Assembly (NCBI GenBank): GCA_043797975.1
Contig: JAZDPC010000056.1
Span: 124,491 to 188,490 of the forward strand
DNA: 64,000 nucleotides
Source: Bacteroidota bacterium
Lineage (GTDB): Bacteria > Bacteroidota > Bacteroidia > Bacteroidales > UBA12481
Direction: 5' to 3'
The notes below the pieces were generated by a model that saw only the letters and a list, made by a program, of their open reading frames with translations, ran no database searches and was not told where the DNA came from. Of this stretch, positions 10,027 to 53,270 are shown in pieces. The translations under genes were made by a program, and so were the position numbers. Numbering within the stretch: position 1 is the stretch's first letter; each line of letters opens with the position of its first letter.

Positions 10027-10032
10027 AAAAAG

Positions 10033-20119: not shown

Positions 20120-20508
20120 AGAATGTTGAGACAATGTACTGGGTCAAGCTGGGGCTCCTGTCTGTCGTACTGGCCGCAGCCGCCTGGATTGTTTTTGGAG
20201 TGATCATGCCGGAATTTTATCCGAAGGGTTTGCCCTGGTTCCTTGGGCTGGTGATCCTGGTCACGGCCGGTGGGCAGGTGCTGCTCACCTGGGTCTTAAA
20301 AACGAATCCCGGGAAATTCAGCAGCTGGTTCATGATTTACAAGTCGGTGAAGCTGCTCATCATTATGGGCGTCATGCTGATTTTTATTCTTACTGACCGG
20401 GAAAACAGTATCTCCTTTCTGATATCGGTTTTTATTATTTACCTGGTTTATATGCTTTTTGAGGCCGCTTCACTGAATAAGGCATCCAGGAAAGAAGCGG
20501 AACGATAA
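20116..20508 (+). CDS. Small 4-TM membrane protein of the atp locus (AtpI-like position)
   Basis: 130 aa and hydrophobic. It overlaps the previous stop by 4 nt (ATGA) and lies directly upstream of atpB. Confidence 0.45.
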   Translation: MKNVETMYWVKLGLLSVVLAAAAWIVFGVIMPEFYPKGLPWFLGLVILVTAGGQVLLTWVLKTNPGKFSSWFMIYKSVKLLIIMGVMLIFILTDRENSISFLISVFIIYLVYMLFEAASLNKASRKEAER

Positions 20509-20514
20509 ATTTTA

Positions 20515-20522
20515 TACTTTTG
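20515..20522 (+). promoter_or_regulatory. -7 box TActTTTG upstream of atpB
   Basis: Exact TAnnTTTG match 24 nt before ATG 20547. It overlaps the TTG used by the ORF track, which argues for the ATG start. Confidence 0.4.
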
Positions 20523-20546
20523 CTACTTCGTTTAAAACGAACAGGA

Positions 20547-21945
<1,399 letters not shown>

Positions 21946-21951
21946 CCAGGT

Positions 21952-21986
21952 CGCAATCCCGCTTTGGCGGGGTTGCGGCTTTTTTA
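21952..21986 (+). terminator. Stable hairpin plus T-run between atpE and atpF (intra-operon attenuator or terminator)
   Basis: cgcaatcccgc-tttg-gcggggttgcg, an 11-bp stem with one G-U pair, followed by gctttttt. Confidence 0.5.
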
Positions 21987-21997
21987 AAAGTAAAACT

Positions 21998-22492
21998 ATG
22001 GGATTAGTTGCACCAGATTACGGTACCATTTTCTGGATGATTGTGGTCTTTGCCCTGGTTTTCTTCATCCTGAAGAAATTTGGCTGGGGACCCATCCTGA
22101 GAATGTTGAAAAAGCGGGAAGAATCGATCAATAAAGCTCTTCAGTCGGCTGAGCTTGCAAGGGAAGAGGTTAGCCAGCTCAAGGTCGGCCATGACCAGAT
22201 GATGCAGGAAGCCAGGATGGAGCGCGAAAAGCTTATGGCCGAAGCCCGTGTCATCAAGGAACAGATGATAGAAAAAGCACGCGAAGAGGCAGCCCGCGAA
22301 ACTGAAAAGCTTCTTGGTTTGTCGCACAGGCAGATTGAAAGCGAGAAGCTTGCTGCCATCAGTGAAATCAGGCAGCAAGTGGCTGTTTTATCGGTTGACA
22401 TTGCGGAAAAGATCCTCCGGAAACAGCTGAAGGATCGCCGGGAGCAGGAAGGCCTGATCCGGGAGCAGCTTCGCGACCTCAAACTAAATTAA
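21998..22492 (+). CDS. atpF: F0F1 ATP synthase subunit b
   Basis: N-terminal TM segment (IFWMIVVFALVFFILKKFGW) followed by a long charged helix. Confidence 0.85.
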   Translation: MGLVAPDYGTIFWMIVVFALVFFILKKFGWGPILRMLKKREESINKALQSAELAREEVSQLKVGHDQMMQEARMEREKLMAEARVIKEQMIEKAREEAARETEKLLGLSHRQIESEKLAAISEIRQQVAVLSVDIAEKILRKQLKDRREQEGLIREQLRDLKLN

Positions 22493-22496
22493 ACTG

Positions 22497-23042
22497 ATGA
22501 ACAACAGCCGTATAGCTTCAAGGTATGCCCGGGCATTGTATACCCTGGTCAAGGAACAGGGTAAGATCGAACCGGTTAGGGATAACCTTGCCGGTCTGGT
22601 GGAGCTGTTGAATGAATCGGCTGAGTTCCGGACTCTTTTGGAGAGCCCGGTTTTGCAAGGATCGGAGAAATCAAAAATAGTGATCGCCCTTCTAAGCGGA
22701 CGGGTTGACCCGGTAACGCTCGACTTCCTGAACATGCTGATTGATCACAAGCGTGAATTATATCTGGCATCGATTTACAGAATGTTCCAGCATATGTATA
22801 AAGCCGAACAGGGAGTTTTAGAGGCGGAGGTTGAATCGGCCGTTCCGATGGATGACACTCTTCTGGCCGATCTTAAATCGAGGCTGGAGAAATCCACGGG
22901 AAGCAGCATAGACTTCAAGACCACCGTCAACGATGAACTGATAGGCGGTTTTAAACTGACACTGGAAGATCAGCAACTGGATGCCAGTGTTCTTACACAG
23001 CTGAGAAAAATTAAACAGGAATTAAGAGAATCAAAGAATTAA
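22497..23042 (+). CDS. atpH: F0F1 ATP synthase subunit delta (OSCP)
   Basis: The IASRYARALY start, 181 aa length, and its position between atpF and atpA. Confidence 0.85.
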   Translation: MNNSRIASRYARALYTLVKEQGKIEPVRDNLAGLVELLNESAEFRTLLESPVLQGSEKSKIVIALLSGRVDPVTLDFLNMLIDHKRELYLASIYRMFQHMYKAEQGVLEAEVESAVPMDDTLLADLKSRLEKSTGSSIDFKTTVNDELIGGFKLTLEDQQLDASVLTQLRKIKQELRESKN

Positions 23043-23048
23043 CAGATC

Positions 23049-24629
23049 ATGGCAAGCATTAAACCGGCGGAGATATCGCAGATTTTACGTCAGCAGCTTG
23101 AGGGACTGAAGCTCGACGCCAGTCTCGAGGAGGTGGGAACCGTATTGGAGGTGGGCGATGGCATTGCCCGTATTTACGGACTTTCCAATGTTCAGAGCAA
23201 TGAGTTGGTGGAGTTTTTTAACGGGGTGATGGGCATCGTACTCAATCTCGAAGAAGATAACGTTGGAGTCGTATTGCTTGGGCCATCCGCTGGAATCCGC
23301 GAAGGAAGCCAGGTGAGGAGGACCCGGAGGATCGCCTCAATTCCGGTAGGTGAAGGCTTGTTGGGCCGTGTGATCAATACGATCGGCCAGCCTCTCGACG
23401 GGAAAGGACCGATTACCGGAACCCTGATCGACCTTCCGCTCGAAAGGAAAGCTCCGGGTGTTATATTCCGTCAGCGGGTCAACCGGCCGATTCAAACGGG
23501 TATTAAAGCTATTGACGCCATGATCCCGATCGGACGGGGACAGCGTGAGCTGATCATCGGCGACCGTCAGACAGGTAAAACGGCCATTGCGGTTGATGCG
23601 ATCATCAATCAGAAAGAGTTTTACGAACAAGGCAAGCCGGTATATTGCATCTATGTTGCTATCGGCCAGAAAGGCTCGACCGTCGCCCGGATCGCCAAGA
23701 CCTTCGAGGAGTATGGAGCCATGCCTTATACGGTTATTGTTACGGCAACCGCCAGCGATCCGGCCGCATTGCAGTTTTATGCCCCGTTCGCCGGAGCCGC
23801 CATCGGTGAGTTTTTCCGTGATACGGGACGCGATGCCCTGATCATTTATGACGACCTTTCGAAACAGGCTGTTTCATACCGCGAAGTATCCCTGCTGCTC
23901 CGCAGGCCTCCGGGAAGGGAAGCTTATCCGGGTGATGTGTTTTATCTTCATTCGAGGCTCCTCGAACGTGCGGCTAAAATCATCGAAAGCGATGAAGTTG
24001 CCAGGCAAATGAATGACCTGCCCGAAGTCCTCCGCTCACAAGTCAAGGGGGGAGGTTCACTTACTGCTCTTCCGATCATAGAAACCCAGGCCGGCGATGT
24101 ATCGGCCTATATTCCGACCAACGTGATCTCCATTACCGATGGTCAGATATTTCTCGAGTCGAGCTTGTTTAACTCCGGCATCCGGCCAGCCATCAACGTG
24201 GGTATTTCTGTATCACGTGTCGGTGGTGATGCCCAGATCAAATCCATGAAAAGGGTGGCAGGCTCCCTTAAACTCGATCAGGCTCAATACCGCGAACTGG
24301 AAGCATTTTCCAAATTCGGTTCCGATCTGGATGCCGCTACCCTAGGCGTACTGGGTAAAGGAGCACGCAACGTTGAGATCCTGAAGCAGAACCTTCATGA
24401 TCCCTACCCTGTTGAAAACCAAATCGCGATACTATTCTGCGGAACCCGCGGGCTGCTGAGCGATGTACCGGTTGGCAAGGTCAAAGAGTTTGAGCGGGAA
24501 TTCATCGAATTCGTGAGAATGAAATATCCGGAGATTCTTGATACCTTCAGGAAAGGACAGTTCCCCGACGAAGCCGATGCAATACTGACCCGGACGGCAG
24601 AAGAATTAACGGGCAAATACAGGCAATAA
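23049..24629 (+). CDS. atpA: F0F1 ATP synthase subunit alpha
   Basis: Walker A GDRQTGKT, plus [43 protein letters not shown]. Confidence 0.97.
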
Positions 24630-24644
24630 AGCAATTACGGGCTA

Positions 24645-25526
24645 ATGGCAAGCTTAAAGGAAATACGTCGGCGGATCACTTCGACCAAATCGACAAGGCA
24701 GATCACCAGCGCCATGAAAATGGTTGCGGCAGCCAAGCTGAAAAGGGCACAGGATGCGATCATCCAGATCAGGCCTTATGCCTTGCGCCTGCACGATATG
24801 ATCGGCCAGGTAAGCGCTACGGTTGACGACCAGGAACTCAGCCCGCTGACGGTCAGTCGTGAACCCAACAAGGTTCTGCTCGTTGTTATCTCAGCGAACA
24901 GGGGCCTGTGCGGGGGGTTCAACGCCAATGTGGTGAAAAGGGTGATCGAGGAGGCTGCTGTCCGGTATTCACTGCAGCGGGGGAAGGGTGCCCTGCACAT
25001 GCTTTTCATCGGTAGAAAAGGAGCAGAAATGCTGAAAACCAAAGGTTTCGGGAAATGGCCCCAGCAAAATGAACTGGTTGAGAAAGCTTCATTAAGCCGT
25101 TCAAACGACTTGGCAGAACAGCTGATCGAATGGTTCATTAAAGGAGAGTATGATCGTATTGATATCATTTACAATCAATTTAGAAATGCAGCCAATCAGG
25201 CTGTGACCACCGAACAGTTCCTGCCCGTTAAACCGGTTGATTCGGGCAGAACAAAACAGAAGCAGCCTAATTTCATTTTTGAACCGGGATTGGAATCTCT
25301 GGTCACACAGTTAATCCCCGAAGCTCTTAAGATACAGTTATACAAATCGTTGCTTGACTCCCTGGCCTCACAATACGGAGCCCAGATGACGGCTATGCAC
25401 CAGGCCACAGACAATGCCACTGAAATGATCCGTGACCTGACCCTTGAATACAACCGGGTCCGCCAGGCTACCATTACCAGTGAACTGATCGAGATCGTAA
25501 GCGGGGCCGAAGCCCTAAAATCATAA
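24645..25526 (+). CDS. atpG: F0F1 ATP synthase subunit gamma
   Basis: MASLKEIRRRITSTKSTRQITSAMKMVAAAKLKRAQ at the start and the C-terminal ITSELIEIVSGAEAL. Confidence 0.93.
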   Translation: MASLKEIRRRITSTKSTRQITSAMKMVAAAKLKRAQDAIIQIRPYALRLHDMIGQVSATVDDQELSPLTVSREPNKVLLVVISANRGLCGGFNANVVKRVIEEAAVRYSLQRGKGALHMLFIGRKGAEMLKTKGFGKWPQQNELVEKASLSRSNDLAEQLIEWFIKGEYDRIDIIYNQFRNAANQAVTTEQFLPVKPVDSGRTKQKQPNFIFEPGLESLVTQLIPEALKIQLYKSLLDSLASQYGAQMTAMHQATDNATEMIRDLTLEYNRVRQATITSELIEIVSGAEALKS

Positions 25527-29254: not shown

Positions 29255-31776
<2,522 letters not shown>

Positions 31777-35534: not shown

Positions 35535-36297
35535 ATGCTACTATTTTATCCAGTTTTGCTAAATATAAAATCTTTGCCTTGAATCGATTGTGTTTTATTT
35601 CGGGATACAACAGGTTGGTGCCGGTGCAATACTTGCTGATGCGGCACGGGTGTATCCTGGCTTCCCGCAACAGGTATCCGAAGCCCCGGGTGGATGAATT
35701 CCTGGTCGACTTGACTTCCAGGATAACCAACCCGGGAAGAGTGATTTTTTTAGAGTCCATGAACCAGGCTGGATTCAGGTCGATGGTAATTCTCTCCTGT
35801 AACACGTTGCTAACCAAAGTTATCCTTTTAAAGGAGGAGGACAGGATTGGCTGAAGGGTTTCCGGGGTGTAAATGGAATGGGCTTCAATGAAACCAGTGA
35901 TGTCCGGGGAAAGATAGTTCCGGTCGGGACCGATGGAGATCCTTTTCTTGGTTGTTTTCCCGTGGTTGTCTTTGAATTTTATTTCGAGAAAGAATTTGTG
36001 CGACTCCTGGTATTCGCGAATCCTGATCTTGTACCGGTTGAGATGGCCATTATGATGCATGATATACATCTCGTGATCGGGAGTATCGAGGTAGAGAGAT
36101 TCATAACCCTGCAGGCGTACCTTATTGATATCGAGTACGCGGAAATGTGGCCGTGCAGCTTCCAGGACCGCAGGCAACTGATCGGTCCGGCACACATATT
36201 TCTGGTCTGTCCGGGTCATTAATTTAACCGCATCGATCCCGGCAAGGGAGATCGGTTCAAAAGTGTCAATCAGTTGGCGGATCTTGTCAACCATCAC
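35527..36297 (-). CDS. VTC-domain (polyphosphate polymerase / triphosphate-tunnel metalloenzyme-like) protein
   Basis: The strings RTDQKYVC, SLYLDTPDHEMY, NRYKIRIREY, FFLEIKFKDNHGKTTKKRISI and VILEVKS recur with the spacing expected for the beta-strands of a CYTH/VTC tunnel. Confidence 0.65.
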   Translation of the reverse strand: MMVDKIRQLIDTFEPISLAGIDAVKLMTRTDQKYVCRTDQLPAVLEAARPHFRVLDINKVRLQGYESLYLDTPDHEMYIMHHNGHLNRYKIRIREYQESHKFFLEIKFKDNHGKTTKKRISIGPDRNYLSPDITGFIEAHSIYTPETLQPILSSSFKRITLVSNVLQERITIDLNPAWFMDSKKITLPGLVILEVKSTRNSSTRGFGYLLREARIHPCRISKYCTGTNLLYPEIKHNRFKAKILYLAKLDKIVAYA

Positions 36298-36713
36298 TTT
36301 CCATGGAATTCGTACTCATATTTTTTCTGACCGATCAAAGTACCTTTTTTGTCATACGTCATACGTTCGGTACGTAGGGCTCCGGTATATTTATAAACAT
36401 GTTTCTTCTTGATCGCGCCATTCGGTTCATACTGAATCTCAACTATTTTCTGGTCATTGGCATTGTATTCATAAGATTCATGCAACACTACAAAGCCTGA
36501 ATTATCGTATTCGGTAATTTCCAGGAGGTTGCCATTCTTATCATACGAACACTTGCTCTCAAGCATTGGTTTGGCCTTCTTGTCAACGCTTGTTTCCCAT
36601 TCGGAAACAGTCCTGATCCCATCCTTCACGGCCTCTTTTTTAGTGAGGGTTTGAGCGCTGAGTCCGAAGGGCAGCAGGCAGAAGGCCAGCGACATCAGCC
36701 ATAGATTTCTCAT
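36294..36713 (-). CDS. Small secreted YD-repeat-like protein
   Basis: Signal peptide MRNLWLMSLAFCLLPFGLSAQ. Repeated Y-D/E-x-x-G motifs (SYDKNGNLLEITEYDNSG, YEPNGAIKK, YDKKGTLIGQKKYEYEF). Confidence 0.4.
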   Translation of the reverse strand: MRNLWLMSLAFCLLPFGLSAQTLTKKEAVKDGIRTVSEWETSVDKKAKPMLESKCSYDKNGNLLEITEYDNSGFVVLHESYEYNANDQKIVEIQYEPNGAIKKKHVYKYTGALRTERMTYDKKGTLIGQKKYEYEFHGK

Positions 36714-36719
36714 AACAGC

Positions 36720-37115
36720 CTATTTATTGATTGTGATATCTTCCACGATTACCGACTGTCCGTCACTCAGGATCTGGACCGTCTTTTTAACCGCTAAATC
36801 CGGTGGCAAACCGGTTACAATGTTCTTGCTGTATGCAAAGACAGTATATGTACCGGGGCGCAGGTACTCAAACCGGTATGAGCCTTCATAACTGGTTCTT
36901 GTCCTGTCTGAAAAAACGCTGTCGGTACCATAGATGATGTAGACATCCTCATCCGGAGCATAATACTGTGCCCGAAGATTGGTCATTTCGGCATTGTAAT
37001 CGTATGCATACACTTTTCCGGTGATGGTACAGGTTCCCCCGACACCTTCTTCTTTAACGCATCCGGCTAATAAGGTTATATAAACCAGCAGGATACCGAT
37101 CCCGATTTTTTTCAT
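36720..37115 (-). CDS. Small lipoprotein with a CarboxypepD_reg-like beta-sandwich
   Basis: Lipobox LLAGC, then GKVYAYDY...GSYRFEYLRPGTYTVFAY. Confidence 0.45.
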   Translation of the reverse strand: MKKIGIGILLVYITLLAGCVKEEGVGGTCTITGKVYAYDYNAEMTNLRAQYYAPDEDVYIIYGTDSVFSDRTRTSYEGSYRFEYLRPGTYTVFAYSKNIVTGLPPDLAVKKTVQILSDGQSVIVEDITINK

Positions 37116-42402: not shown

Positions 42403-45400
42403 TTAACGAAGGGTTATTTTTTCGTTCCATTCGCCGGAGTCGGTGTGGATGTTAATCAGGTATAGTCCTTTGGGTTCCTCATATAAAGAGAAGGATTCGG
42501 ACATAGAGCCCAAGAAGGAGCGAATTAAACGCTCGGTCACGATTTGTCCGTTCAGGTTCATAATGCGGATACGGATATCCCCCGGCATCGCCTGATCCAG
42601 ATCAATGGAGAAACTCCCGTTTGACGGATTCGGGTAGATTTTCAATCCGGATGGTTTAACCAGGTCGGGAATACCGGCAATGCTCACGAACAGCTCGATA
42701 TTATCAACGGCAGCCCCGCCTGCCTTTTCGTATCCGTTGTCATAAATGAAACCAATCTGGGTCTTCGCGGAAATGGCCTCCGGAGGAAGAATGACAGTCG
42801 TCGTCGTCCATACCCAGTCTGCCTGCCCCGATGGAGGAAACTGTTCCAGGATGGTCCAGGCTTTTTCGGGTGAGGTCCTGTAAGCTATGCAGAACTTGCT
42901 GGTATCATTGTTTTGCAGGAAGGCTGATGCAAACCGCAGGCTCAACTCGCTTCCGGTGTGGGAAGTAAGATCCATGACCGGTGAGGCGAGGCAGCCTGTA
43001 ATATGAGTGCCGGCAGATCCGGAAAGGCTCTCGATACCGTAAAAATGATCGTCGTTTCTCGGAATGCCCAAATCCATTGATGTTCCGTAAAGCCAGCCGT
43101 TAGCTGCTTTGTTACCCGCCCATCCGGCAGTACTTTGATTGAAATCGACTGAATAGGGAAGGATAACAGGATCGATCAGAATGGCAGAAGCCCTGTTGGA
43201 AGGATCGGAATAGGTGTTGCCAAAGTACTCGGCAACCACGTAATAGGTGTAATCCGTATTTTTCTCAACCAGATCATCAGAATAGAAGGGTGAGGTACTC
43301 ATCCCGTAATACTGGTTATTCCGGTATATCCTGTAATTGGTCAGGTATTGCGGGTAAAACGGGGCATTCCAATACAGGCAGATAGCCGAAGAAGCAGGAA
43401 CAGCCTGCAGGGCAGTAACCGGGAGGATAGGCATGGATGCTGCCAGACCCGTTTCCCAAAGACCCCTGCCGAAAGTAGCAGCTCTGAGCCGTGACTTGTT
43501 GCGGTCGAGATGATCGTAATAGATTTCCAGGTCGGTTATTTCAGCTGCTGCGGGTAATCCGGCATTGAAAAAAACCCAGTCGGTCATATCAGCATCGCGG
43601 TAATAAACACCGGCATCGGTTCCAACATACAGGCCTTCATTACCGGACTTATCAAATGCTATGCTATTCATTGCAATGGAAGGCAGGCTGCCGCTGATAT
43701 CGGTCCAGGTTTCTCCTTTGTCGGCAGATTTATAAACCTTTCTGCCCAATGTTATATACACGGTCAACGGATCGTACGGATGAGCCTCGATATCTGAAGC
43801 GATATTTTCTGTCGGGAGGTTTGAGGAGAGGTCTAGCCAAACAGGTACCGGCAGGGTGAAATCATCCGTGCGGAAAAATTTCCGGTCCTGGCGCGAGGCA
43901 TAAAGCACTTTCAGATCAGCCGGCGATTGTTCGAGAGCGGTCATGAGGACATCATCCCTGCCTGCCAGATTGGAGGTGATCTTCTTCCAGGAAATATTCG
44001 TGTTCTTTAAATCGTGTGTGATCCAGATGTTCTTATATCCGGCTATCATTGTATTCCCGTCTTCCTCGTGAATGATGAACGGAGTGATCCAGGCACCCTT
44101 TTCGGTGATGCCATTGCTCCCTTCCCCGGCAACGCGCCTCTGGTACCCGTTAAACAGGAGCTGGTCGATATATCCGTAGTAAAGAGTAATATAACTATAC
44201 TGATAATCTGCCGGGTCAAAGGCACACTCCATTCCGTCACCGCCTCCGGAGGTCCACCATTCGGTACCGATCCAGGTTGCACTTCCGTTATCCTGGAATC
44301 CGGTAACAATCTTTTGCGAATTGGTCAGGCTGACTCCGAGCCGGTAGATCTGGCCAATACCCAGGCCTTCCGTGATCTCTTTCCAGCTTGTTCCCTGGTT
44401 ATCGGTATAGTAAATTCCTCCATCGTTGCCCGCGTAAAGCCTTTTATTGGCCGGATTGTAGTAAAAGGTATGCTGATCAGCGTGAATTTCCTGGGCACCG
44501 GAACCGGTCCAATGACCCGTGATTCTCCATGCCTTTCCTCCGTTGTCGGATCGCCACAGATTGACTCCGCCAACGTGAAGAACCTGTGCGTTCAAAGGAT
44601 CAACATGGAAGCAGAGATCATACCAGGCCTGACTTCCAACATCACTCCCATCCTGTGCGTAACCAAGAATATTGGGGGTTGTCGACTGGGTTATGAAGGT
44701 TTTCCCGTCGTCCTGTGAAACGTAACAGCCGACAAAAGAATCGGCACCGCTGATCAGGTAAACCAGGTTTGGGGCGGCCGGGGTTACGCCGATCACGAGA
44801 CGGCCTGTTTTAGGAAGTCCATTGCTATCCGGGACCTGAAGCCAGGTTTCGCCTGCATCTTCACTGCGGAAGAAAGCGGTAGTATTGGCAATGATGGAAT
44901 AGGCGATATTGTGGTTACCCGGCTTGAATTTTACATCCTTATAATGTCCGGTGACTTCGGTCTGTTTGGTCCAGGTGGCGCCTCCATTGATGGTTTTAAA
45001 AATTCCGCCGCTGGTTGCGGCCAGGATCAGATCGGGATTCGTTTCGCTGCGGGCAAACATGCCGACTGTCACATTACCCATTCCCGTGTTGTACTGTTCC
45101 CAGCTCTGGCCGTCGTCGGTGCTCCGGATGACCCCGATACCCCGGGCATCGCCATGATCGCGGTCGCCGGTGCCAACCAGGATTTCATTTGTACGGGTAG
45201 GATGGATGAGTATGGCTGAAGCCCCAAGCGATGGAAGCTCTTCTGTCAACGGCTGCCAGTCCGCACCTCCGTTAGTCGTTTTCCAAACGCCGCCCGATGG
45301 GGCACATACGTATACAATGCTGGTATCAGCAGGGTTGCAGGCAATGGCATTTAACCGTCCCAATCCGGTATATCCGCCATAGTTCACGCGGGTTTTCGGA

Positions 45401-45786
45401 CCGAGTTCAGTCCAGGGCATGTCGGAGCTTTTCAGCGATTCCGACTTCGGATGCTCCCGGATATATCTGGCATATTCCCGGCTGACGTAGCCCGGTTCAG
45501 GGAAAGTGCCATCAGGATTGATGCGGAACAACCAATAATTTTCCCATCTCTTGAAGGGTTTATAACCGTCACCCCGATGGGTAGTCCGGTTTTCCCAGTA
45601 AGTATAAAATGCTTTCTGGGTCTCAAAGAAATTTCCCTTTGGATCTTCCATCATTCCAATCCAGGCTGGATAGGCTGAATAATCCGTATCGGGAACGGTT
45701 TGGGCAGAGATCTGCAGAGATGCCGCCAGACCGGTAGCAGAGATGATAAGAAAAGCAATGAACCAGTGGTTAATTCTGATCTGCAT
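42403..45786 (-). CDS. Large T9SS cargo: BNR/Asp-box double beta-propeller (sortilin/VPS10- or GH74-like), FN3, MAM/choice-of-anchor-J-like domain, CTD
   Basis: 1127 aa with a signal peptide. Multiple Asp-box motifs (STDDGQSW, TINGGATW, SEDAGETW, SDNGGKAW, TDNQGTSW, SADKGETW). C-terminal LKIYPNPSNGSFSIDL...GLYLINIHT. Confidence 0.65.
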   Translation of the reverse strand: MQIRINHWFIAFLIISATGLAASLQISAQTVPDTDYSAYPAWIGMMEDPKGNFFETQKAFYTYWENRTTHRGDGYKPFKRWENYWLFRINPDGTFPEPGYVSREYARYIREHPKSESLKSSDMPWTELGPKTRVNYGGYTGLGRLNAIACNPADTSIVYVCAPSGGVWKTTNGGADWQPLTEELPSLGASAILIHPTRTNEILVGTGDRDHGDARGIGVIRSTDDGQSWEQYNTGMGNVTVGMFARSETNPDLILAATSGGIFKTINGGATWTKQTEVTGHYKDVKFKPGNHNIAYSIIANTTAFFRSEDAGETWLQVPDSNGLPKTGRLVIGVTPAAPNLVYLISGADSFVGCYVSQDDGKTFITQSTTPNILGYAQDGSDVGSQAWYDLCFHVDPLNAQVLHVGGVNLWRSDNGGKAWRITGHWTGSGAQEIHADQHTFYYNPANKRLYAGNDGGIYYTDNQGTSWKEITEGLGIGQIYRLGVSLTNSQKIVTGFQDNGSATWIGTEWWTSGGGDGMECAFDPADYQYSYITLYYGYIDQLLFNGYQRRVAGEGSNGITEKGAWITPFIIHEEDGNTMIAGYKNIWITHDLKNTNISWKKITSNLAGRDDVLMTALEQSPADLKVLYASRQDRKFFRTDDFTLPVPVWLDLSSNLPTENIASDIEAHPYDPLTVYITLGRKVYKSADKGETWTDISGSLPSIAMNSIAFDKSGNEGLYVGTDAGVYYRDADMTDWVFFNAGLPAAAEITDLEIYYDHLDRNKSRLRAATFGRGLWETGLAASMPILPVTALQAVPASSAICLYWNAPFYPQYLTNYRIYRNNQYYGMSTSPFYSDDLVEKNTDYTYYVVAEYFGNTYSDPSNRASAILIDPVILPYSVDFNQSTAGWAGNKAANGWLYGTSMDLGIPRNDDHFYGIESLSGSAGTHITGCLASPVMDLTSHTGSELSLRFASAFLQNNDTSKFCIAYRTSPEKAWTILEQFPPSGQADWVWTTTTVILPPEAISAKTQIGFIYDNGYEKAGGAAVDNIELFVSIAGIPDLVKPSGLKIYPNPSNGSFSIDLDQAMPGDIRIRIMNLNGQIVTERLIRSFLGSMSESFSLYEEPKGLYLINIHTDSGEWNEKITLR

Positions 45787-45896: not shown

Positions 45897-48800
45897 CTAG
45901 TGAAGTGTGATCTTTTCAATCCATTCACCTGCGGCCGACTGGACGATCAATTGGTACATACCTTTGGGCTGGCTGGTCAGATCAATTGATTCAGACACTG
46001 TTCCCGATGCATAGTCAAGCCTTTTTTCGAGTATTGCCTGTCCTGTGATGCTCACAACCCGGATGGTTACATTGCCTGGCTTGGCAAGTGCCATGTTCAG
46101 GTGGAACAGACCGTTGCCCGGGTTCGGATAAACAGTGATCTTCGACAGGTAATCAATAGGTTTTGCTGATGTTGAATTTACGAAAAGCTGAACATCGTCT
46201 ATTGCGGCACCGTATGCATAGGTGTTCGAATTTGTATAATAGAATCCGATTTGCATGGTGGAAGTCAAAGCCCTTTCAGGCAGGTTAATCTCTGTTGTAT
46301 CCCATTTCCAGGTTTGTGTACTTGGGGGCTTCATATCGACCAGTTTCACCCAGGCACTGTCAGGAGCCGGACGATAATTAATGTTGAATTTATCGTAGTT
46401 GATCCATTTTCTCATCGTATAGGCGAATTTCAGCGTAATAGTCTGGCCCGTGTAACTGCTCAGGTCAATGGCTGGAGTGGTCAGGTAGTCTTTCACGTTG
46501 ACGCCTTCTCCGGCAGCGAAACTGCTGGCAGCAAAGAATTTCCCCTCGCGCCCCGGGACCTGGAGCTGTTCAGAAGTGCCATATTTCCAACCCTCGAGAG
46601 TGTATTTTGCCTGATATCCTCCTGTACTGTTATCGAATGACTGGCTGTACGGTAGAACGATTGGCGACACGATGGTTGCCGATGCTTCATTTGAATGGGG
46701 GCTCTCGATATTCCCGGTGTACATTGCTGTAATGGTATAAGTATAGGTAACATCCGGGACGATAGTCAAATCGGTATAGGAGCTTCCGTTGATAGAATTA
46801 AGCAGTTCGCCATTCCGGTAAATCCTGTATCCCGTTACAGTCTGCTGATAGAAAGGATTCTGCCAGTTCAGTTCAATGGCCCCATCCACATCTGTTGCGG
46901 TAAGCATAGTGGGCGGCAGGATAGCGTTGGATGAAGCCAGGGCAACTTCCCACATGCCCCTGCCATAGGTGGAGGCGCGCAAACGGGAACTGGTCCTGAG
47001 GCTCCGGTCATAATATATCTCGACTTCGGTAACTTCAACGTTTACCGGTAATCCGGTACCGTGCAGGACCCAGTCTGTCATCGATGCATCACGATAGTAA
47101 ACACCGGCATCGGTTGAGATGTACATCCCGTCGTCGCTGGTTTTGTCACAGGCAATGCTGTTGATGTTGATATCCGGAAGGGTACCTGAAATATTTTCCC
47201 AGGTTCCTCCTTTGTTGAACGATTTATAGATCTTGTTGTTCAAGGCCATGTACACAACGTTTTCATCATACGGGTAACATTCAACATCCGCAGGAGTGCC
47301 CGATGAAGGCAACTGTGCCGTCAGGTTGGTCCAGATGACCGTTGAGTCCATCAGGTTTTCAGTCCGGAACAATTTACTGTCTGACCGGGCTGCAAAGAGC
47401 AGATTGATGTTTGCGGGCGAATGTTCCAGTACGCTCATGTCAGAACTATTGCTGCCCGCCAGGTTGTTTGATATTTTTGTAAAGGAAATTGTACCCAGAT
47501 TCCGGATATTTCTTGACATCCAGACGTTTTTATATCCGGCAACCATCACATTTCCATCCCATTCACTGATCAGATATGGTGTGACCCAGGCACCTTTTTC
47601 AGTAATTCCGTTGACATTTTCAGCTGCAACCTGCCGGCCGCTGGCATCGTTTGTATAGCGGGTGATAGCACCGAAATAGCAGGCCGTATAATTCCATTTG
47701 GAGTCAAAGGGATCGATGACGCATTCCATGCCGTCACCGCCGCCGGAGGTAATCCAGTGGGTACCCAGATAAGTGGCGCATCCGTTATCCTGAAATCCGC
47801 ATGAAACCTTATTCTTATTGTTAGGCGATACACCCAGCCTGTACATCTGGCCGATACCAAGGCCCTGGCTGATCTCTGTCCAGGTAGCGCCCTGGTTCTG
47901 GCTCCAGTAAATACCGCCGTCGTTGCCGTTATAAATCCTGTTGTTTACAGGATTAAGTGCAAAGGTGTGATGATCGGCATGAACCTCGCTGGTCCGGTCG
48001 CCCCACCAATGGCCTTCACAAACCCAGGTTTTTCCGCTATCGGATGATTTCCAAAGGTTAACGCCTCCTATATGAACAATGGTCGGAATCTGGGGATCGA
48101 CATGGATGATCAGATCATACCAGGCCTGGCTTCCCTCATCATCGGCATCAAAGGACCAACCCAGGATATTGGGGGTTGTGGATTGAGTGGTGAAGGTTTG
48201 GCCAAAGTCCCTGGAAAGGAAGGTTCCCTGATATTCATCCGCACCGGCAAGCAGATAGACCAAACTGTCGTTTGCCGGTGTGGTACCGATCACCAGCCTG
48301 CCGCCGGTTACATATCCGACAGAAGGAGGCATCTGGATCCAGGTCTGACCGCCGTCGGTAGTCCGGTAGAAACGGTCGTCTGCAGTGGCATAAGCCACGC
48401 TGCTGCTCCGCGGGCGGAATTTAACGTCCCGGTAATTTGAACTGTTGGATGAGGTCTTTGTCCAATCCTGGCCGCCATTGGTTGTAACGAACATGCCACC
48501 GTTGCCGGCTGCCAGGATATGATCGGGATTGTTCGGGTCCTGGGCAAACATGCCGATCGTGTAGTTACCCATCCCGTTATTGTATGCGGTGAATGACTGT
48601 CCGCCGTCTGTACTGCGGAAAACTCCCAGGCCGGGTGCATTACCGCCGTCGCGGTCACCGGTCCCGATCAGGATATTATTGGGTTCGCTCTGATCAACCA
48701 GGATAGCTGAAACGCCAAGGGTAGGCATCGTATCGGTAGCCGTTGTCCAGGTAAGGCCACCGTCATGGGTAATCCAAAAACCTCCGGATGGAGCCCCGAT

Positions 48801-49271
48801 GTAAACGGTCGAGGTATCGGTCGGATGAAAAGCAATAGCATTGATCCTGCCGTTGCCCATATATCCCCCGATACCTACCCGGGTTTTCGGGCCGAGTTCG
48901 ATCCACTGGGGACCTCCGGTTTTCAGGTCTCTTACGGGATGAGCTGCTGCATATCGTGAGTATTCCTTGTAAACATGGTCAGGAGCCCGGAGTGTACCGT
49001 CGGGATCGAGCCGGCTTTGCCAGTAATATTCCCATCTTTTAAAGGGCTTGTATCCTGTTCCCCGGGTAGGCGTGCGGCCTTCCCAGTAAGTATAGAATGC
49101 TTTCTGAACTTCGAAGAAATTTGCATTCGGTTCCAACATCATCTCTCTCCAATAAGGATGTGTGGCATAATCCTTAGTATCCTGTCCTGTTGGGTTTTGA
49201 GCGCTGGTTGATTGGAATCCCAGCAAAAGCGCCATGCACAGAGTTAAAGCAAGCAAGAGTTTGTTTTTCAT
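45897..49271 (-). CDS. Large T9SS cargo, tandem paralog of 42403-45786
   Basis: It has the same architecture. An 80-residue N-terminal stretch aligned by eye shows 48 of 80 identical residues (e.g. QKAFYTYWE.RT..RG.GYKPFKRWE.YW). The CTD reads ITVYPNPGNGLFHLNM...GMYQLIVQS. The start was moved to MKNKLLLALTL. Confidence 0.65.
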   Translation of the reverse strand: MKNKLLLALTLCMALLLGFQSTSAQNPTGQDTKDYATHPYWREMMLEPNANFFEVQKAFYTYWEGRTPTRGTGYKPFKRWEYYWQSRLDPDGTLRAPDHVYKEYSRYAAAHPVRDLKTGGPQWIELGPKTRVGIGGYMGNGRINAIAFHPTDTSTVYIGAPSGGFWITHDGGLTWTTATDTMPTLGVSAILVDQSEPNNILIGTGDRDGGNAPGLGVFRSTDGGQSFTAYNNGMGNYTIGMFAQDPNNPDHILAAGNGGMFVTTNGGQDWTKTSSNSSNYRDVKFRPRSSSVAYATADDRFYRTTDGGQTWIQMPPSVGYVTGGRLVIGTTPANDSLVYLLAGADEYQGTFLSRDFGQTFTTQSTTPNILGWSFDADDEGSQAWYDLIIHVDPQIPTIVHIGGVNLWKSSDSGKTWVCEGHWWGDRTSEVHADHHTFALNPVNNRIYNGNDGGIYWSQNQGATWTEISQGLGIGQMYRLGVSPNNKNKVSCGFQDNGCATYLGTHWITSGGGDGMECVIDPFDSKWNYTACYFGAITRYTNDASGRQVAAENVNGITEKGAWVTPYLISEWDGNVMVAGYKNVWMSRNIRNLGTISFTKISNNLAGSNSSDMSVLEHSPANINLLFAARSDSKLFRTENLMDSTVIWTNLTAQLPSSGTPADVECYPYDENVVYMALNNKIYKSFNKGGTWENISGTLPDININSIACDKTSDDGMYISTDAGVYYRDASMTDWVLHGTGLPVNVEVTEVEIYYDRSLRTSSRLRASTYGRGMWEVALASSNAILPPTMLTATDVDGAIELNWQNPFYQQTVTGYRIYRNGELLNSINGSSYTDLTIVPDVTYTYTITAMYTGNIESPHSNEASATIVSPIVLPYSQSFDNSTGGYQAKYTLEGWKYGTSEQLQVPGREGKFFAASSFAAGEGVNVKDYLTTPAIDLSSYTGQTITLKFAYTMRKWINYDKFNINYRPAPDSAWVKLVDMKPPSTQTWKWDTTEINLPERALTSTMQIGFYYTNSNTYAYGAAIDDVQLFVNSTSAKPIDYLSKITVYPNPGNGLFHLNMALAKPGNVTIRVVSITGQAILEKRLDYASGTVSESIDLTSQPKGMYQLIVQSAAGEWIEKITLH

Positions 49272-49333
49272 TCGAGTACTGTTTATTGATGTGAAACGGG
49301 CAAGCATAGTTTTGCAAGTTTACGAAATAAAGC

Positions 49334-49371: not shown

Positions 49372-49386
49372 TTCTCAGTTTACCAG

Positions 49387-49458
49387 TAGCCCCGACAGGA
49401 CTCGAACCTGTATCTATAGTTCCGGAAACTATCATTCTATCCCTTGAACTACGAGGCC
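49387..49458 (-). tRNA. tRNA-Arg (anticodon CCG)
   Basis: Hand-folded 72-nt cloverleaf: GGCCTCG TA GTTC AAGGGATA GAAT G ATAGT TTCCGGA ACTAT AGAT ACAGG TTCGAGT CCTGT CGGGGCT A. CCA is not encoded. Confidence 0.9.
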
Positions 49459-49474
49459 TTGGCCAATATTTCAG

Positions 49475-49546
49475 TAGCCTCACCAGGACTCGAACCTGAA
49501 TTTAAAGTTTAGGAAACTTCCGTTCTATCCCTTGAACTATGAGGCC
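49475..49546 (-). tRNA. tRNA-Arg (anticodon CCU)
   Basis: Hand-folded 72-nt cloverleaf: GGCCTCA TA GTTC AAGGGATA GAAC G GAAGT TTCCTAA ACTTT AAAT TCAGG TTCGAGT CCTGG TGAGGCT A. Confidence 0.9.
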
Positions 49547-49600: not shown

Positions 49601-50323
49601 TCAGTCGAACAAGGCCTGCAGGATCAGATGCGACCGGATCTCGCCGATGCCTTCCAGGTGATGCATGTAAAACCGAAGAATGCCGTCGAGCAGCTCCTGC
49701 CGCTGGTGCCTGTTCAGATTGATACTGGCTATTTCCGATACCGGTATCTGCATGAATGCTACCAATTGCGACGTCATATCCGGGGGAAGAGCCTGACCTT
49801 GCTGAGGCTTATCAGGCAGAAAAACTCCTGATAACAATTCGAGCCAGCGGCGATCCCCATCGGGCAGCCCTGGATTGAAACCGAAGTAGCGTGCCAGGCG
49901 GATCAGAAAATAAATATGGAAATTGGCCACGCTGTGGTCCGCAACATCCAGATATTGAATATGATAACTTAGAAAGTCGAACAGGTCCTCGTTCGGTGTC
50001 TCTTCACGCAGTGTTTTATTCAGGACCTCCGACAGGAAGAGGGCGACTGAGCTTTTAACCGGATCGCCCGTCATGTGCACAAAAGGGCTGTGGTTGCGGG
50101 CTTCCTTGATCTTCTGAAGATCCCGGCTGGATTTGTAGTAAACCTCCAGTTCCAGGATTGTCAGGGGCTGAAAGAGGTGGGTTTTCCGGTTTTTCGAGGA
50201 AGTGCGGGCTCCCGGGACCAGGATGCCCATACGGCCCCATCGCCGGGTATAGAGGTGAACAATCAGGCTGGTTTCCCCGAACTTGATCTGACTTAGAACA
50301 ATCCCGAGGGTTTTTTCAATCAT
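49601..50323 (-). CDS. recO: DNA repair protein RecO
   Basis: N-terminal OB-fold pattern (TLGIVLSQIKFGETSLIVHLYTRRWGRMGILV), 240 aa. Confidence 0.85.
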   Translation of the reverse strand: MIEKTLGIVLSQIKFGETSLIVHLYTRRWGRMGILVPGARTSSKNRKTHLFQPLTILELEVYYKSSRDLQKIKEARNHSPFVHMTGDPVKSSVALFLSEVLNKTLREETPNEDLFDFLSYHIQYLDVADHSVANFHIYFLIRLARYFGFNPGLPDGDRRWLELLSGVFLPDKPQQGQALPPDMTSQLVAFMQIPVSEIASINLNRHQRQELLDGILRFYMHHLEGIGEIRSHLILQALFD

Positions 50324-50325
50324 GA

Positions 50326-52656
50326 TTATCTGACGATCAAAATCTTAGTTACAGCTTTCCCGGTCTGGTCAGAAGTTGAAGCAAAAACTAGATACACGCC
50401 GGTTGCTACAGGGCTGCCCGATCTGTTGTTGCCATCCCAGACCATCTGTCCGCCCAGGCTCTCTCCTTCATAAACCAAACCCCCGGCCAGATCGGTAATC
50501 CTGACCGCAGCATCAACCGGCAGCCCCTTCACGGTTATGGGCCCTGAATATCCCGGTCTGACAGGATTGGGGAATGCATACACGGGACCTTCATAGATAT
50601 CTGCACGGGTTGCCGTTCCGCGGTAAGAAACCACGCCGGCTTCAGTACCGAAATGAACTTCGCCGGACTGATGATCAATAGCAATAGAGATGATATTGTT
50701 GGACAGAAGCGGTGAGTTGGACATGTTGAAAGACTGGATCATGTCGGTACCTTCGGGATTGGTGAGAAAGACGCCGGAATTGCGTGTTCCGAACCATTTC
50801 CGGTTAGCTCCGTCAACCGCGATCGCCGTCACAATCTCGGTTGACAGGAGGCCGTGATAATATCCGTCGCCCAGGTTGACGCTTGGCTGGATGGCATAAA
50901 AATCGTCTTCTTCATTGAAGACCAGGTAGGGGGCATAATAAACTACCACTCCGCTGCTGGTACCAATCCACAACTTGCTTCCATCCAGCTCGGCAGCCAT
51001 GGAATATACATCGTTCATGATCGTTGACTTGGGGCTTAGAGCATTGACCGTTACTTTCATTTGCCGGTCATCCGTCAGGTCTTCGAGGCTGGTTCCGTTG
51101 TCAAAGGCAAAAAGCCCGAAACCCTTGGGCAATTGCACCCACTTGATGTCGCCGGAAGTGATCACGATCTGTCCGGTAAAAGCATCGCCCAGATATTGTC
51201 CATAAGCAAAATTCTGCCAGGTCCCATCCGGTGTCATTACGGAAACGGGATTCTGGACCCCGGAATTGGTTACCCACAGGTTGTTTTTGGAATCAAACAC
51301 CAGGCCTCCCACACGGATATAGGGATATCCGGCAAAAATACTCTGCAAGGCCCCACCGGTATTGGTATCGTTAAAAACGCCCACATATTCCCCGTCACGG
51401 AACTCCAGCACGCCGGATCCCCAGGAAGCCCCAAATACATGATGCTCATCGGCCGGATCTACTGCCAGATCCACGATATCGCGAATATCACCCCATGCCG
51501 GCACAGTAGCGGGAGTAAAGGCGGTCCAGGTACCCTTGAGTTTTGCCGATACACCGCTGTTGTTCCAGATATTGTTCCAGGACGCATCGTAGCCGCCGGA
51601 GGCAATCCACAAATCACCACCCGCGACAGCCAGGTCAAAGGTCTTGCGGTCCCAGGGTCCCTCCGGCTTCTTCCGGATGAAGTCAGTATAATCTGTTGTG
51701 ATAACCAGCCCGAAATCCCGGTCGGCGATCCAGTTCCTTCCCTGATTGTCGACCATCAGGTCACCCGGGTTGATGATGTCTTCTCCGTAATGATTGATAT
51801 TCCGGTGAAGGATCCCGTCGGTGCCAATAAAATTGATCTGATAAGAACTGACCACCATCAGTTCATCGCCAATGAAGCGCATGCGCCTTATATCATTATA
51901 ATAGCGGGGGAACCATTCCCATTCGTACCCGTCATAAGTGAAAATGGAATCGACATCACCGCTGTTGCTCAGGTGCGAAGCCCATAAGGTACCGTCGTAA
52001 TAAGCCAGGTGGTTATAGGTATCACCACTGAACGGCTGACCGGGTACCAGGCTCCAGTTCCTGAAATTCTCAAGATCGGGATCATATTTCGAAGCCTTGT
52101 AAATCCCTGCCTCAGTAGCGGCAAAGATCGAATCATAATGAAAGATCATGGTTTCAAATACCTCGATATGAGATCCATCAGGCCCGATATAATACGTGGA
52201 GGCAACTTCGTTCCGGACAATATTGAGCCGGATAATTCCAAATCCACAGGAAAGGAGGGCTTCGTCACCTTCGACCTGGATGCTGTTGATCCGCTTGCTT
52301 CCGGTAATAGCTTTGCGCTTGATATCCGGAATATTAATGATCTGGTTATTCTTTAACAGATCGATATTGGAATTGGCATATGCGATGATCAGGGTGTTAT
52401 GTTCCTCACTGAAAGCCAGGCAGGCGATTTCAACGTCGCTCAGGCCGTTAACTTTCGACCATTTGGAAATAGTCTCCGACTCCGGGTCATACGAAAAGAG
52501 ACCGCTGCGGGTGGCACACCAAACAATGCCCCGGGCCTCCACCAGGCTGATAGCCTGTCCGAACGACAGCTGATCCTACCATTCCCCGACGCGTACCTGT
52601 GCCCTGACAGGCATGGCAAGGATCAAAATCAATGATAATATGAATAGTTTTCGCAT
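50326..52656 (-). pseudogene. PorZ-like T9SS double beta-propeller protein, interrupted by an in-frame TAG (52578-52576) right after the signal peptide
   Basis: The same reading frame gives MRKLFILSLILILAMPVRAQVRVGEW*DQLSFGQAISLVEARGIVWCATRSGLFSYD... The downstream part is 738 aa of two-component-regulator-propeller-type repeats plus a CTD (VYAFPNPVRPGYSGPITVKGLP...GVYLVFAS). Confidence 0.55.
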
Positions 52657-52660
52657 CAAT

Positions 52661-53270
52661 TTATAATAACCTATCATCCCCGGATTTATTGCCTGTCTTG
52701 CGCAGGAACTGCACCAGGGCTGCAACGGCCCGGCCGCGATGGGAGATCGAGTTTTTCTCGTCATGCGTCATTTCTGCAAAACTCTTGTCATAGCCGTCGG
52801 GGAGAAACACCGGATCGTACCCGAATCCCTTGTTACCACGGTTCTCAGTGAGGATTGTTCCTTCAACCGTTCCTTTAAAAAGGTATTCCCGGCCATCAAG
52901 GATGAGGGCGATCACCGTACGGAAACGCGCTGTCCGTTTCACTTTCCCATTCATAGCTTCGAGAAGCTTGATCACATTGTCGGCATAGGTGGCATTTTCC
53001 CCTGCATAACGCGCAGAGAAAACTCCGGGAGCTCCGTCAAGCGCATCAACTTCCAGACCCGTATCATCGGCGAAGCAGTCTGCGCCATATCGCTCATAAA
53101 TATACCGGGCTTTCATCAAGGCATTCCCTTCCAGATCGGGTTCCGTCTCAGGGATTTCTCCGCTGAAGCCTATATCAGAAAGGCCATTGACCGTAAACCC
53201 GTCTCCTGTGATCTGGCGGATTTCGAAAAGCTTGTGGCGGTTATTCGTGACGAAAATCAGTTCCCCGCAT
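52661..53270 (-). CDS. rdgB: dITP/XTP pyrophosphatase (RdgB/HAM1 family) with an apparent 1-nt frameshift just after the start codon
   Basis: The track ORF (152 aa) lacks the conserved N-terminus. That part (ELIFVTNNRHKLFEIRQITGDGF...EIPETEPDLEGNAL) is encoded in frame upstream with no ATG/GTG/TTG. An ATG at 53270-53268 lies one nucleotide out of frame, before a G4 run. Confidence 0.7.

What the first reader, a model, noticed from the sequence alone, without database searches (positions are those of the whole stretch)
52540..52656. In-frame amber codon separates the signal peptide from the body of a PorZ-like T9SS component
Translating the minus strand from ATG 52656 gives a textbook signal peptide, then TAG (52578-52576), then the same frame for 749 more codons: MRKLFILSLILILAMPVRAQVRVGEW*DQLSFGQAISLVEARGIVW... 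The ORF track only recovers the body from an internal GTG, which would yield a cytoplasmic protein with no signal peptide even though it carries a T9SS C-terminal domain. TAG is used as a normal stop elsewhere in the window, for example in the sigma factor at 6093-6095. The candidate explanations are a genuine nonsense mutation in a T9SS accessory gene, a base-call error, or low-level readthrough or suppression. The window encodes at least three other CTD cargo proteins, so a true null would matter for cell-surface biology. The gene lies 4 nt downstream of rdgB, which also carries a lesion.
Basis: seen in the sequence. Interest (0 to 1): 0.6.

Follow-up and report, generated by a model that had tools for sequence, protein, structure and literature searches.

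The report
Premature stop codon in porZ gene
A secretion-system gene (porZ) of an uncultured Bacteroidales bacterium carries one wrong base that turns codon 27 into a stop; this is an ordinary point lesion, either a sequencing error or a very recent knockout, not a new kind of genetic decoding.

Summary
On the minus strand, ATG 52656 opens a 776-codon frame that is interrupted only by TAG at 52578-52576 (codon 27), seven codons after a signal-peptide cleavage site (VRA|Q).

The gene is a true PorZ:
- NCBIfam equivalog NF052228 scores 609 bits against a cutoff of 260, end to end.
- P. gingivalis PorZ structure 5M11 matches at E=7e-69.
- About 60 orthologs are single proteins of about 776 aa, with rdgB-porZ-recO synteny.

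The two closest relatives' DNA reads GAG at this codon, so the lesion is one G>T change; most other orthologs have Gln.

TAG is a normal stop here (13 of 56 ORFs), and no suppressor tRNA lies in the window. The rest of porZ looks pristine, with branch dN/dS of 0.06 and one private change at conserved columns. The lesion is therefore either very recent or not real.

The adjacent rdgB has a private +1 G at codon 3, 688 bp away. Every other checked ORF in the 64 kb looks intact.

No same-species sequence or reads could be found. I cannot decide between a record error (about 0.5) and a genuine recent null allele (about 0.43). Recoding is very unlikely. Interest is low.

The parts
50326..52656 (-). 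porZ, 776 codons plus TAA stop, interrupted only by the TAG at codon 27
   Evidence: Translation. NCBIfam NF052228 T9SS_PorZ equivalog at 609.2 bits (cutoff 260), residues 1-776 against profile 1-757/757. PDB 5M11 at E=7e-69. Orthologs of 776 aa at 85-91% identity and 100% coverage.
52600..52656 (-). Sec signal peptide, codons 1-19 (MRKLFILSLILILAMPVRA), with cleavage before Q20
   Evidence: The sequence shows a basic n-region, a hydrophobic core and V-R-A at positions -3 to -1. The pattern of hydrophobic core, small residue, then Q is conserved in orthologs. P. gingivalis PorZ has signal peptide M1-A25 and mature Q26 (PMC5121618). The Bacteroidetes Q-rule paper is PMC5837995.
52576..52578 (-). 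In-frame TAG at codon 27. The changed base is 52578: T on the coding strand, A on the + strand, where the two closest relatives have G.
   Evidence: In DNA alignment A1 the window reads GAATGGTAGGAT where L001 and L002 read GAATGGGAGGAC.
52540..52542 (-). Internal GTG, the first canonical start after the TAG. It would give a 738-aa product without a signal peptide.
   Evidence: ORF list and translation.
52051..52521 (-). PorZ N-terminal beta-propeller domain, residues 46-202
   Evidence: Pfam PF21544 at 132.9 bits (cutoff 27), profile 2-154/154.
50359..50511 (-). C-terminal T9SS sorting domain (CTD) region, residues about 716-766
   Evidence: Pfam CHU_C scores 22.2 bits, below its cutoff of 27. 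The alignment to the 5M11 chain runs to query residue 758. The NCBIfam PorZ model is matched to its last position.
52661..53270 (-). rdgB (Ham1-family non-canonical purine NTP pyrophosphatase), first gene of the rdgB-porZ-recO cluster. It is frameshifted at codon 3.
   Evidence: Pfam Ham1p_like at 221 bits and NCBIfam NF011398 at 274 bits. Start-region comparison.
53263..53266 (-). GGGG run holding the private +1 G. L002 reads ATGC-GGGAACTG. From ATG 53270 the frame gives MRGTDFRHE*.
   Evidence: This is the only internal indel column in a 4.7-kb three-way alignment.
49601..50323 (-). recO, starting 2 nt after the porZ stop. It is intact.
   Evidence: Pfam RecO_N and RecO_C. Full-length tblastn match to the L001 and L002 orthologs.

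Best explanation
The window holds a genuine, selectively maintained porZ gene encoding the T9SS attachment-complex protein that hands anionic LPS to the PorU sortase. One base of codon 27 reads T instead of G, turning GAG (Glu) into TAG.

As written, translation would end seven residues after the signal-peptide cleavage site. The only downstream canonical start (GTG 52542) would make a cytoplasmic protein that cannot reach the Sec or T9SS route. The allele as recorded is therefore a null.

My leading reading is that the T is an uncorrected base-call or consensus error in a locally poorly supported stretch of the assembly. The same would then explain the extra G in rdgB 688 bp upstream. On this reading the organism makes normal PorZ.

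Shown by tool results:
- The gene is PorZ, and orthologs are single genes.
- The closest relatives have GAG at codon 27.
- The rest of porZ shows no decay.
- A second single-base lesion lies in the adjacent gene.
- The other checked ORFs in the window look intact.

Inferred: that the two lesions share a technical cause.
For: - **Gene identity and unity:**
- **Single G>T change:** shown against the two closest relatives' DNA.
- **No sign of relaxed selection on porZ:**
  - Window-branch dN/dS is 0.060, against 0.040 and 0.042 for the relatives. On the same branch recO is 0.123 and the aminotransferase 0.097.
  - The window has only 1 private substitution (A453V) at columns at least 95% conserved. 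The 60 aligned sequences range from 0 to 10, with a median of 2.
- **Second private lesion:** a +1 G in a GGG run at codon 3 of the adjacent rdgB. It is the only internal indel in 4.7 kb of three-way alignment.
- **Rest of the window looks intact:**
  - All 13 genes of L001 map as single full-length HSPs.
  - About 36 further ORFs give Pfam matches with no sign of a split, most spanning a whole domain profile. Four more had no Pfam match.
- **Clustering:** two random lesions in 64 kb would fall within 688 bp of each other about 2% of the time (2 x 688 / 64000, my arithmetic). This favours a local common cause.
- **Broken gene calls in related public MAGs:**
  - porZ is split into three ORFs in L014 and in L015.
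  - A cargo gene is split in L002.
Against: - No reads, quality values or second assembly of this organism could be found, so an error is not demonstrated.
- The window is otherwise very clean. An assembly with so few errors should rarely produce a substitution that happens to make a stop; roughly 1 in 20 random coding substitutions does (my estimate).
- A G>T transversion and a +1 slip in a G run are also natural mutation types.
[quoted passage not shown] A real null allele could therefore persist.
Confidence: 0.5

Rival explanations
1. The change is a genuine, very recent nonsense mutation. The sequenced strain or dominant population carries a porZ null allele (GAG27 to TAG) and, independently or through a shared event, an rdgB frameshift. 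The cell would export CTD cargo poorly and fail to attach it to the surface. recO downstream might also suffer from transcriptional polarity.
For: - The sequence as given says exactly this.
- Both changes are natural mutation types.
- The rest of the 64 kb shows no sign of an error-prone assembly.
- porZ deletion is viable in P. gingivalis with a negligible growth defect in complex medium (PMC5121618).
- The pristine state of the gene fits a very recent event as well as it fits an error.
Against: - Two independent disabling mutations in adjacent genes, with none found elsewhere in the window, has about a 2% chance under randomness. No biological link between rdgB and porZ function is known to me.
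- Three CTD cargo genes in the window remain intact.
- porZ has been under strong purifying selection along the whole branch, so the lineage depends on it.
Confidence: 0.43
2. The TAG is real but leaky. A near-cognate tRNA (for example tRNA-Gln) or an amber suppressor elsewhere in the genome reads through it. This would give a low level of full-length PorZ carrying Gln, Glu or another residue at a tolerant position.
For: - Position 27 is variable and polar in orthologs: Q 35, N 6, E 5, T 5, S 4, D 2, H 1, K 1. Almost any inserted residue would be tolerated, and Gln would restore the clade consensus.
- Basal readthrough of UAG by near-cognate tRNAs is established knowledge from E. coli. It was not tested here.
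Against: - No ortholog has a stop at this position; all 59 aligned have a sense codon. Nothing is conserved or programmed.
- TAG terminates 13 of 56 ORFs in the window. The aminotransferase is one, and it ends level with its orthologs.
- The window's only tRNAs are two tRNA-Arg, and Rfam finds nothing else.
- Basal readthrough is typically well under 1-2%, from my own knowledge.
Confidence: 0.04
3. TAG is a sense codon in this organism, through code reassignment or pyrrolysine.
For: None beyond the in-frame TAG itself.
Against: - 13 of 56 ORFs end in TAG.
- The only other in-frame TAG junction between sizeable same-strand ORFs that needed checking (36294-37115) separates two proteins that each have their own signal peptide.
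- MnmH is full length before its TAG.
- Orthologs have Glu or Gln at position 27; only 1 of 59 has Lys.
Confidence: 0.01
4. The signal-peptide mini-ORF and the 749-codon body are normally two separate genes, or this is an old decaying pseudogene.
For: None.
Against: - Orthologs are single proteins of about 776 aa covering the whole query.
- The PorZ equivalog profile is matched from position 1 to 757.
- No further lesion occurs in 776 codons, branch dN/dS is 0.06, and there is one private change at conserved sites.
Confidence: 0.01

Closest known systems
PorZ (PG1604 / PG93) of Porphyromonas gingivalis, T9SS attachment-complex component; crystal structure 5M11
   Same: - Both are 776 residues long.
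- Both have an N-terminal Sec signal peptide cleaved before Gln, and the matches span an N-terminal beta-propeller domain through to the C-terminal T9SS domain.
- The NCBIfam PorZ equivalog scores 609 bits, Pfam PorZ_N_b_propeller matches, and phmmer to 5M11 gives E=7e-69.
- The known function is to bind A-LPS and pass it to the sortase PorU. Deletion abolishes cargo processing and attachment (PMC5121618 and PMC8545088).
   Different: - The window copy has TAG at codon 27, which aligns to Asn14 of the 5M11 chain.
- Sequence similarity to the P. gingivalis protein is modest: the N-terminal match scores 48.5 bits and the C-terminal match 186.9 bits.
- A-LPS binding and the PorU partnership are untested for this lineage.
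Intact PorZ orthologs of uncultured Bacteroidales: P0001 (Logan SRR33086896), P0002 (GCA_964520515.1) and P0003 (JGI)
   Same: - They share 85-91% amino-acid identity over all 776 residues.
- L001 and L002, the contigs read for P0001 and P0002, have the same aminotransferase(-)/rdgB/porZ/recO synteny. In L001 the rdgB-porZ spacing is also 4 nt.
   Different: They read Glu at codon 27 (GAG in the DNA of L001 and L002) and are uninterrupted.
Fragmented porZ gene calls in public long-contig MAGs: L014 (ENA ERZ21878447, 218-kb contig) and L015 (GCA_016708515.1, 51-kb contig)
   Same: porZ is not a single ORF in an otherwise syntenic locus; recO follows porZ in both, and rdgB precedes it in L014.
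   Different: Those copies are broken into three overlapping ORFs, which suggests multiple frameshifts. The window has a single base substitution and no frameshift in porZ.

Membership tests
T9SS PorZ | Scores above the curated cutoff of the PorZ equivalog model over its full length | tested here: met
   NF052228.1 scores 609.2 bits against a cutoff of 260, with residues 1-776 on profile 1-757/757. The stop was entered as X.
T9SS PorZ | PorZ-type N-terminal beta-propeller | tested here: met
   PF21544 scores 132.9 bits against a cutoff of 27, residues 46-202. The region aligns to 5M11 residues 11-149.
T9SS PorZ | Cleavable Sec signal peptide at the N-terminus | tested here: met
   The sequence MRK-LFILSLILILAMPV-RA|Q was read directly and is conserved in orthologs. 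P. gingivalis PorZ has M1-A25|Q26. No dedicated signal-peptide predictor was available.
T9SS PorZ | C-terminal T9SS sorting domain (CTD) | tested here: met
   The PorZ profile is matched to its last position. The alignment to the C-terminal part of 5M11 runs to query residue 758. Pfam CHU_C alone is below threshold at 22.2 against 27 bits.
T9SS PorZ | Uninterrupted reading frame that links signal peptide, propellers and CTD | tested here: not met
   TAG lies at codon 27. All 59 aligned orthologs have a sense codon there.
T9SS PorZ | Binds A-LPS and interacts with PorU, PorQ and PorV on the cell surface | not testable with these tools
   This is a biochemical property known for P. gingivalis (PMC8545088). 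No porU, porV or porQ gene lies in the window.
Programmed stop-codon readthrough or recoding | The stop codon is conserved at the same position in orthologs | tested here: not met
   None of 59 orthologs has a stop there; the column is Q, N, E, T, S, D, H or K. GAG is present in the two closest DNAs.
Programmed stop-codon readthrough or recoding | The codon is not used as an ordinary terminator, or a suppressor tRNA is present | tested here: not met
   TAG ends 13 of 56 ORFs. Only two tRNA-Arg genes lie in the window. The rest of the genome is not available.
Decaying pseudogene | Further disabling lesions or relaxed selection (raised dN/dS, changes at conserved sites) | tested here: not met
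   There is one stop in 776 codons. Branch dN/dS is 0.060, lower than the two neighbouring genes on the same branch. One private change falls at columns at least 95% conserved.

The most novel reading that the evidence does not exclude
The TAG is real and is read through at a low level. For example, a near-cognate tRNA-Gln could restore the clade-consensus Gln27, so the amber codon would act as a strong attenuator of PorZ dosage rather than a knockout. A tamer alternative is that this is a natural, very recent porZ-null strain of an uncultured Bacteroidales lineage that still keeps its CTD cargo genes. I put that at about 0.4 probability, and it would be of modest interest.
Probability: 0.03. 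Interest if true: 0.45.

Novelty: already known. Interest (0 to 1): 0.1.

Why it matters
If the stop is real, this strain lacks the protein that supplies anionic LPS to the T9SS sortase. Its CTD-bearing surface proteins, at least three of which are encoded nearby, would not be processed or anchored. That would make it a natural T9SS attachment mutant.

If the stop is an error, the practical consequence is for annotation. Gene callers will emit a 738-aa, signal-less "cytoplasmic" PorZ or a pseudogene, and likewise a truncated rdgB. The record needs correction at two bases. Neither outcome changes what is known about T9SS or about decoding.

Tried and rejected
1. **Search for the source or a same-species sequence, to see the allele elsewhere.**
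   - An exact 51-nt pattern with N at the changed base gave 0 hits in genome contigs and 0 in metagenome contigs.
   - The window's RecO protein is not on record.
   - The best PorZ in the 5.8-billion-protein database is 91% identical.
   - A second search with only the N-terminal 232 residues, aimed at same-species fragments, gave nothing above 69%.
   - The protein-pattern scan of GTDB genomes gave at best 60%.
   - No population-level check was therefore possible.
2. **TAG reassignment.** I re-derived ORFs with TAG, TGA or TAA each treated as sense.
   - Apart from porZ, the TAG junctions between adjacent gene-sized ORFs were 14407-15471/15487-16794 and 36720-37115/36294-36713.
   - The first pair is a full-length MnmH followed by a histidine kinase.
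   - The second pair is two proteins that each have their own signal peptide.
   - Reassignment is rejected.
3. **Other broken genes in the window.** The overlapping ORF pairs 3044-3973/3813-4388, 6097-7164/7118-8068, 19531-20508 and 20520-21945 all turned out to be distinct genes. They include LolA-like, TetR, bactofilin, AtpZ-like, and ATP synthase a and c.
4. **rdgB start.**
   - I considered that the window might share L001's upstream-extended frame. The window has CTT preceded by TGA where L001 has ATG.
   - In this stretch the window is otherwise nearly identical to L002 plus one G.
   - The extra G is therefore a private insertion, not a shared alternative start.
   - Initiation at an in-frame ATC, ATT or CTG cannot be excluded.
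5. **Rfam scan of the window.** It found only the two tRNAs.

Full report
**Observation**

On the minus strand an ATG at 52656 opens the frame MRKLFILSLILILAMPVRAQVRVGEW. TAG follows at 52578-52576 as codon 27. The same frame then stays open for 749 more codons to TAA at 50328-50326. The mechanical ORF list contains only the part from the internal GTG at 52542, 738 aa.

- rdgB ends 4 nt upstream of the porZ ATG.
- The sigma-factor ORF 5610-6095 ends in TAG.
- Three other ORFs carry T9SS C-terminal domains.

**What the gene is**

With the stop entered as X, the 776-residue product matches the NCBIfam equivalog model for PorZ (NF052228). The score is 609 bits against a cutoff of 260, with residues 1-776 aligned to profile positions 1-757 of 757.
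- Pfam finds the PorZ N-terminal beta-propeller at 133 bits.
- The solved P. gingivalis PorZ structure 5M11 matches at E=7e-69. Query residue 24 (GEW) aligns with chain residue 11 (GIW).
- A database search returned 1447 relatives. The full-length ones are single proteins of about 776 aa covering 98-100% of the query, signal peptide included. The three closest are 85-91% identical.
- The gene order aminotransferase(-)/rdgB/porZ/recO recurs in L001, L002 and L010, and rdgB-porZ-recO also in L011, L013 and L014.

The two parts are therefore one gene, and the PorZ assignment holds.

The signal peptide has a basic n-region, a hydrophobic core and V-R-A before Gln20. This mirrors P. gingivalis PorZ, which has signal peptide M1-A25 and mature Q26 (PMC5121618). 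It also fits the Bacteroidetes Q-rule (PMC5837995).

**What the lesion is**

In the DNA alignment the window reads GAATGGTAGGAT. Both close relatives read GAATGGGAGGAC. That is one G>T change on the coding strand at 52578, turning GAG (Glu) into TAG.

Across 59 orthologs the column holds Q 35, N 6, E 5, T 5, S 4, D 2, H 1 and K 1, and never a stop. The position is polar and tolerant, seven residues into the mature protein.

As written, translation ends there. The next canonical start, GTG 52542, would give a protein without a signal peptide. Such a protein could not cross the inner membrane to reach the T9SS. The recorded allele is a null.

**Recoding is very unlikely**

- TAG terminates 13 of 56 gene-sized ORFs in the window, against 33 TAA and 10 TGA.
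- The aminotransferase ends at TAG level with its orthologs.
- MnmH is full length before its TAG.
- The only other in-frame TAG junction that needed checking (36294-37115) separates two proteins that each have their own signal peptide.
- The window's only RNA genes are two tRNA-Arg.
- No ortholog conserves a stop at this position.

**The gene shows no decay**

Nei-Gojobori estimates with a three-taxon branch decomposition give porZ a window-branch dN/dS of 0.060. The relatives' branches give 0.040 and 0.042. On the same window branch recO gives 0.123 and the aminotransferase 0.097.

At alignment columns at least 95% conserved, the window's PorZ has one private change, A453V. Its closest relatives have 1-2, and the 60 aligned sequences range from 0 to 10 with a median of 2. 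There is no other stop or frameshift in 776 codons. The TAG is therefore either very recent or absent from the cell's DNA.

**The neighbour rdgB**

Three relatives (L002, L010, L013) start rdgB as ATG-xxx-GAR-CTS, encoding M-[R/K/H]-E-L-[I/V]-F-V-T-N-N. The window reads ATG CGGGG AACTG, one G more than L002's ATG CGG GAA CTG.
- From ATG 53270 the frame gives MRGTDFRHE*.
- The Ham1 frame has no ATG, GTG or TTG until TTG 53119, which would remove about 50 N-terminal residues.
- In a 4.7-kb three-way alignment this G is the only internal indel column.
- Initiation at an in-frame ATC, ATT or CTG cannot be excluded.

**The rest of the window**

- All 13 genes of L001 map to the window as single full-length HSPs.
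- About 36 further ORFs give Pfam matches with no sign of a split, most of them spanning a whole domain profile. Four more had no Pfam match, and three small or partial ORFs were not scanned.
- Every suspicious overlapping ORF pair proved to be two distinct genes.

Two single-base lesions thus lie 688 bp apart in adjacent genes, in a 64-kb window with no other lesion found. Two random positions in 64 kb would be that close about 2% of the time (my arithmetic). This suggests one local cause.

**Error or real**

No same-species sequence exists in any collection I could search. The decisive comparison, reads or a second assembly, could not be made.

In favour of a record error:
- The two lesions cluster.
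- Both lie at a G run on the same strand.
- The gene is pristine.
- Broken gene calls occur in related public MAGs. porZ is split into three ORFs in L014 and in L015, and a cargo gene is split in L002.

In favour of a real mutation:
- The window is otherwise clean, so the assembly looks accurate. In an accurate assembly a substitution error that happens to create a stop is improbable.
- G>T transversions and G-run slips are natural mutations.
- porZ deletion barely affects growth of P. gingivalis in complex medium.

I put a record error at about 0.50 and a genuine recent null allele at about 0.43. Leaky readthrough gets about 0.04, and everything else about 0.02 or less.

**Comparison with what is known, and verdict**

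This is a new ortholog of a well-characterised protein, PorZ. PorZ binds A-LPS and delivers it to the PorU sortase (PMC8545088). The copy here carries an ordinary point lesion. It meets every sequence-based criterion for PorZ membership except an uninterrupted frame.

Nothing here is new in kind, and interest is low. The practical outcome is a flag for read-level verification at two bases, 52578 and the run 53263-53266. There is also an annotation warning: the 738-aa signal-less ORF is not the natural product.

Noticed in passing
window 53263-53266 (rdgB, 52661-53270, minus strand): rdgB has a private +1 G in a GGG run at codon 3. The ATG at 53270 is out of frame with the Ham1 body, and there is no canonical in-frame start before TTG 53119. 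This is the only internal indel in a 4.7-kb three-way alignment.
   Followed up: yes
window 10012-12237 (+) and 14407-15471 (+): A 741-aa fusion joins a NifS-like cysteine desulfurase (residues 1-380) to the selenophosphate synthetase SelD (396-736). The tRNA 2-selenouridine synthase MnmH lies two genes downstream. A T9SS-CTD VIT/VWA protein (12256-14382) sits between them. Together these form a selenouridine gene cluster with an unusual fusion.
   Followed up: partly
L014:3501-5833 and L015:3501-5806; L002:5506-8372: In two long public MAG contigs porZ is called as three ORFs, overlapping in L014 and partly gapped in L015, which probably reflects frameshifts. In L002 the ortholog of the window cargo gene 45897-49307 is split into 323 and 628 aa. 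Broken gene calls occur in the public assemblies of this group.
   Followed up: partly
window 42403-45786 and 45897-49307 (minus strand); tRNAs 49386-49546: Two tandem paralogous proteins of about 1130 aa carry BNR/sortilin-type repeats and Por_Secre_tail CTDs. The second also has fn3 and MAM/choice-of-anchor-J domains. They lie directly downstream of recO and two tRNA-Arg genes (CCG, CCT). A related cargo gene follows recO in L010.
   Followed up: partly
window 36294-37115 (minus strand): Two small ORFs (131 and 139 aa) lie in the same frame, separated only by TAG plus two codons. Each has its own signal peptide (lipobox LLAGC and LSA|Q), so they are separate genes and not a second in-frame amber.
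   Followed up: yes
window 19718-25526 and 30244-31776 (+): The F-type ATP synthase genes (AtpZ-like, a, c, b, delta, alpha, gamma) are contiguous. A second alpha/beta-family subunit gene, presumably the beta subunit, lies 4.7 kb downstream. It follows a thioredoxin-like gene, an MMPL transporter gene and a polyprenyl synthetase gene.
   Followed up: no
L001:9361-9996: The closest relative's rdgB lacks the usual M-x-E-L start codon and is called from an upstream ATG, giving 211 aa with the N-terminus MIKGIKNNPIREL. The 5' end of rdgB seems evolutionarily labile in this clade.
   Followed up: partly
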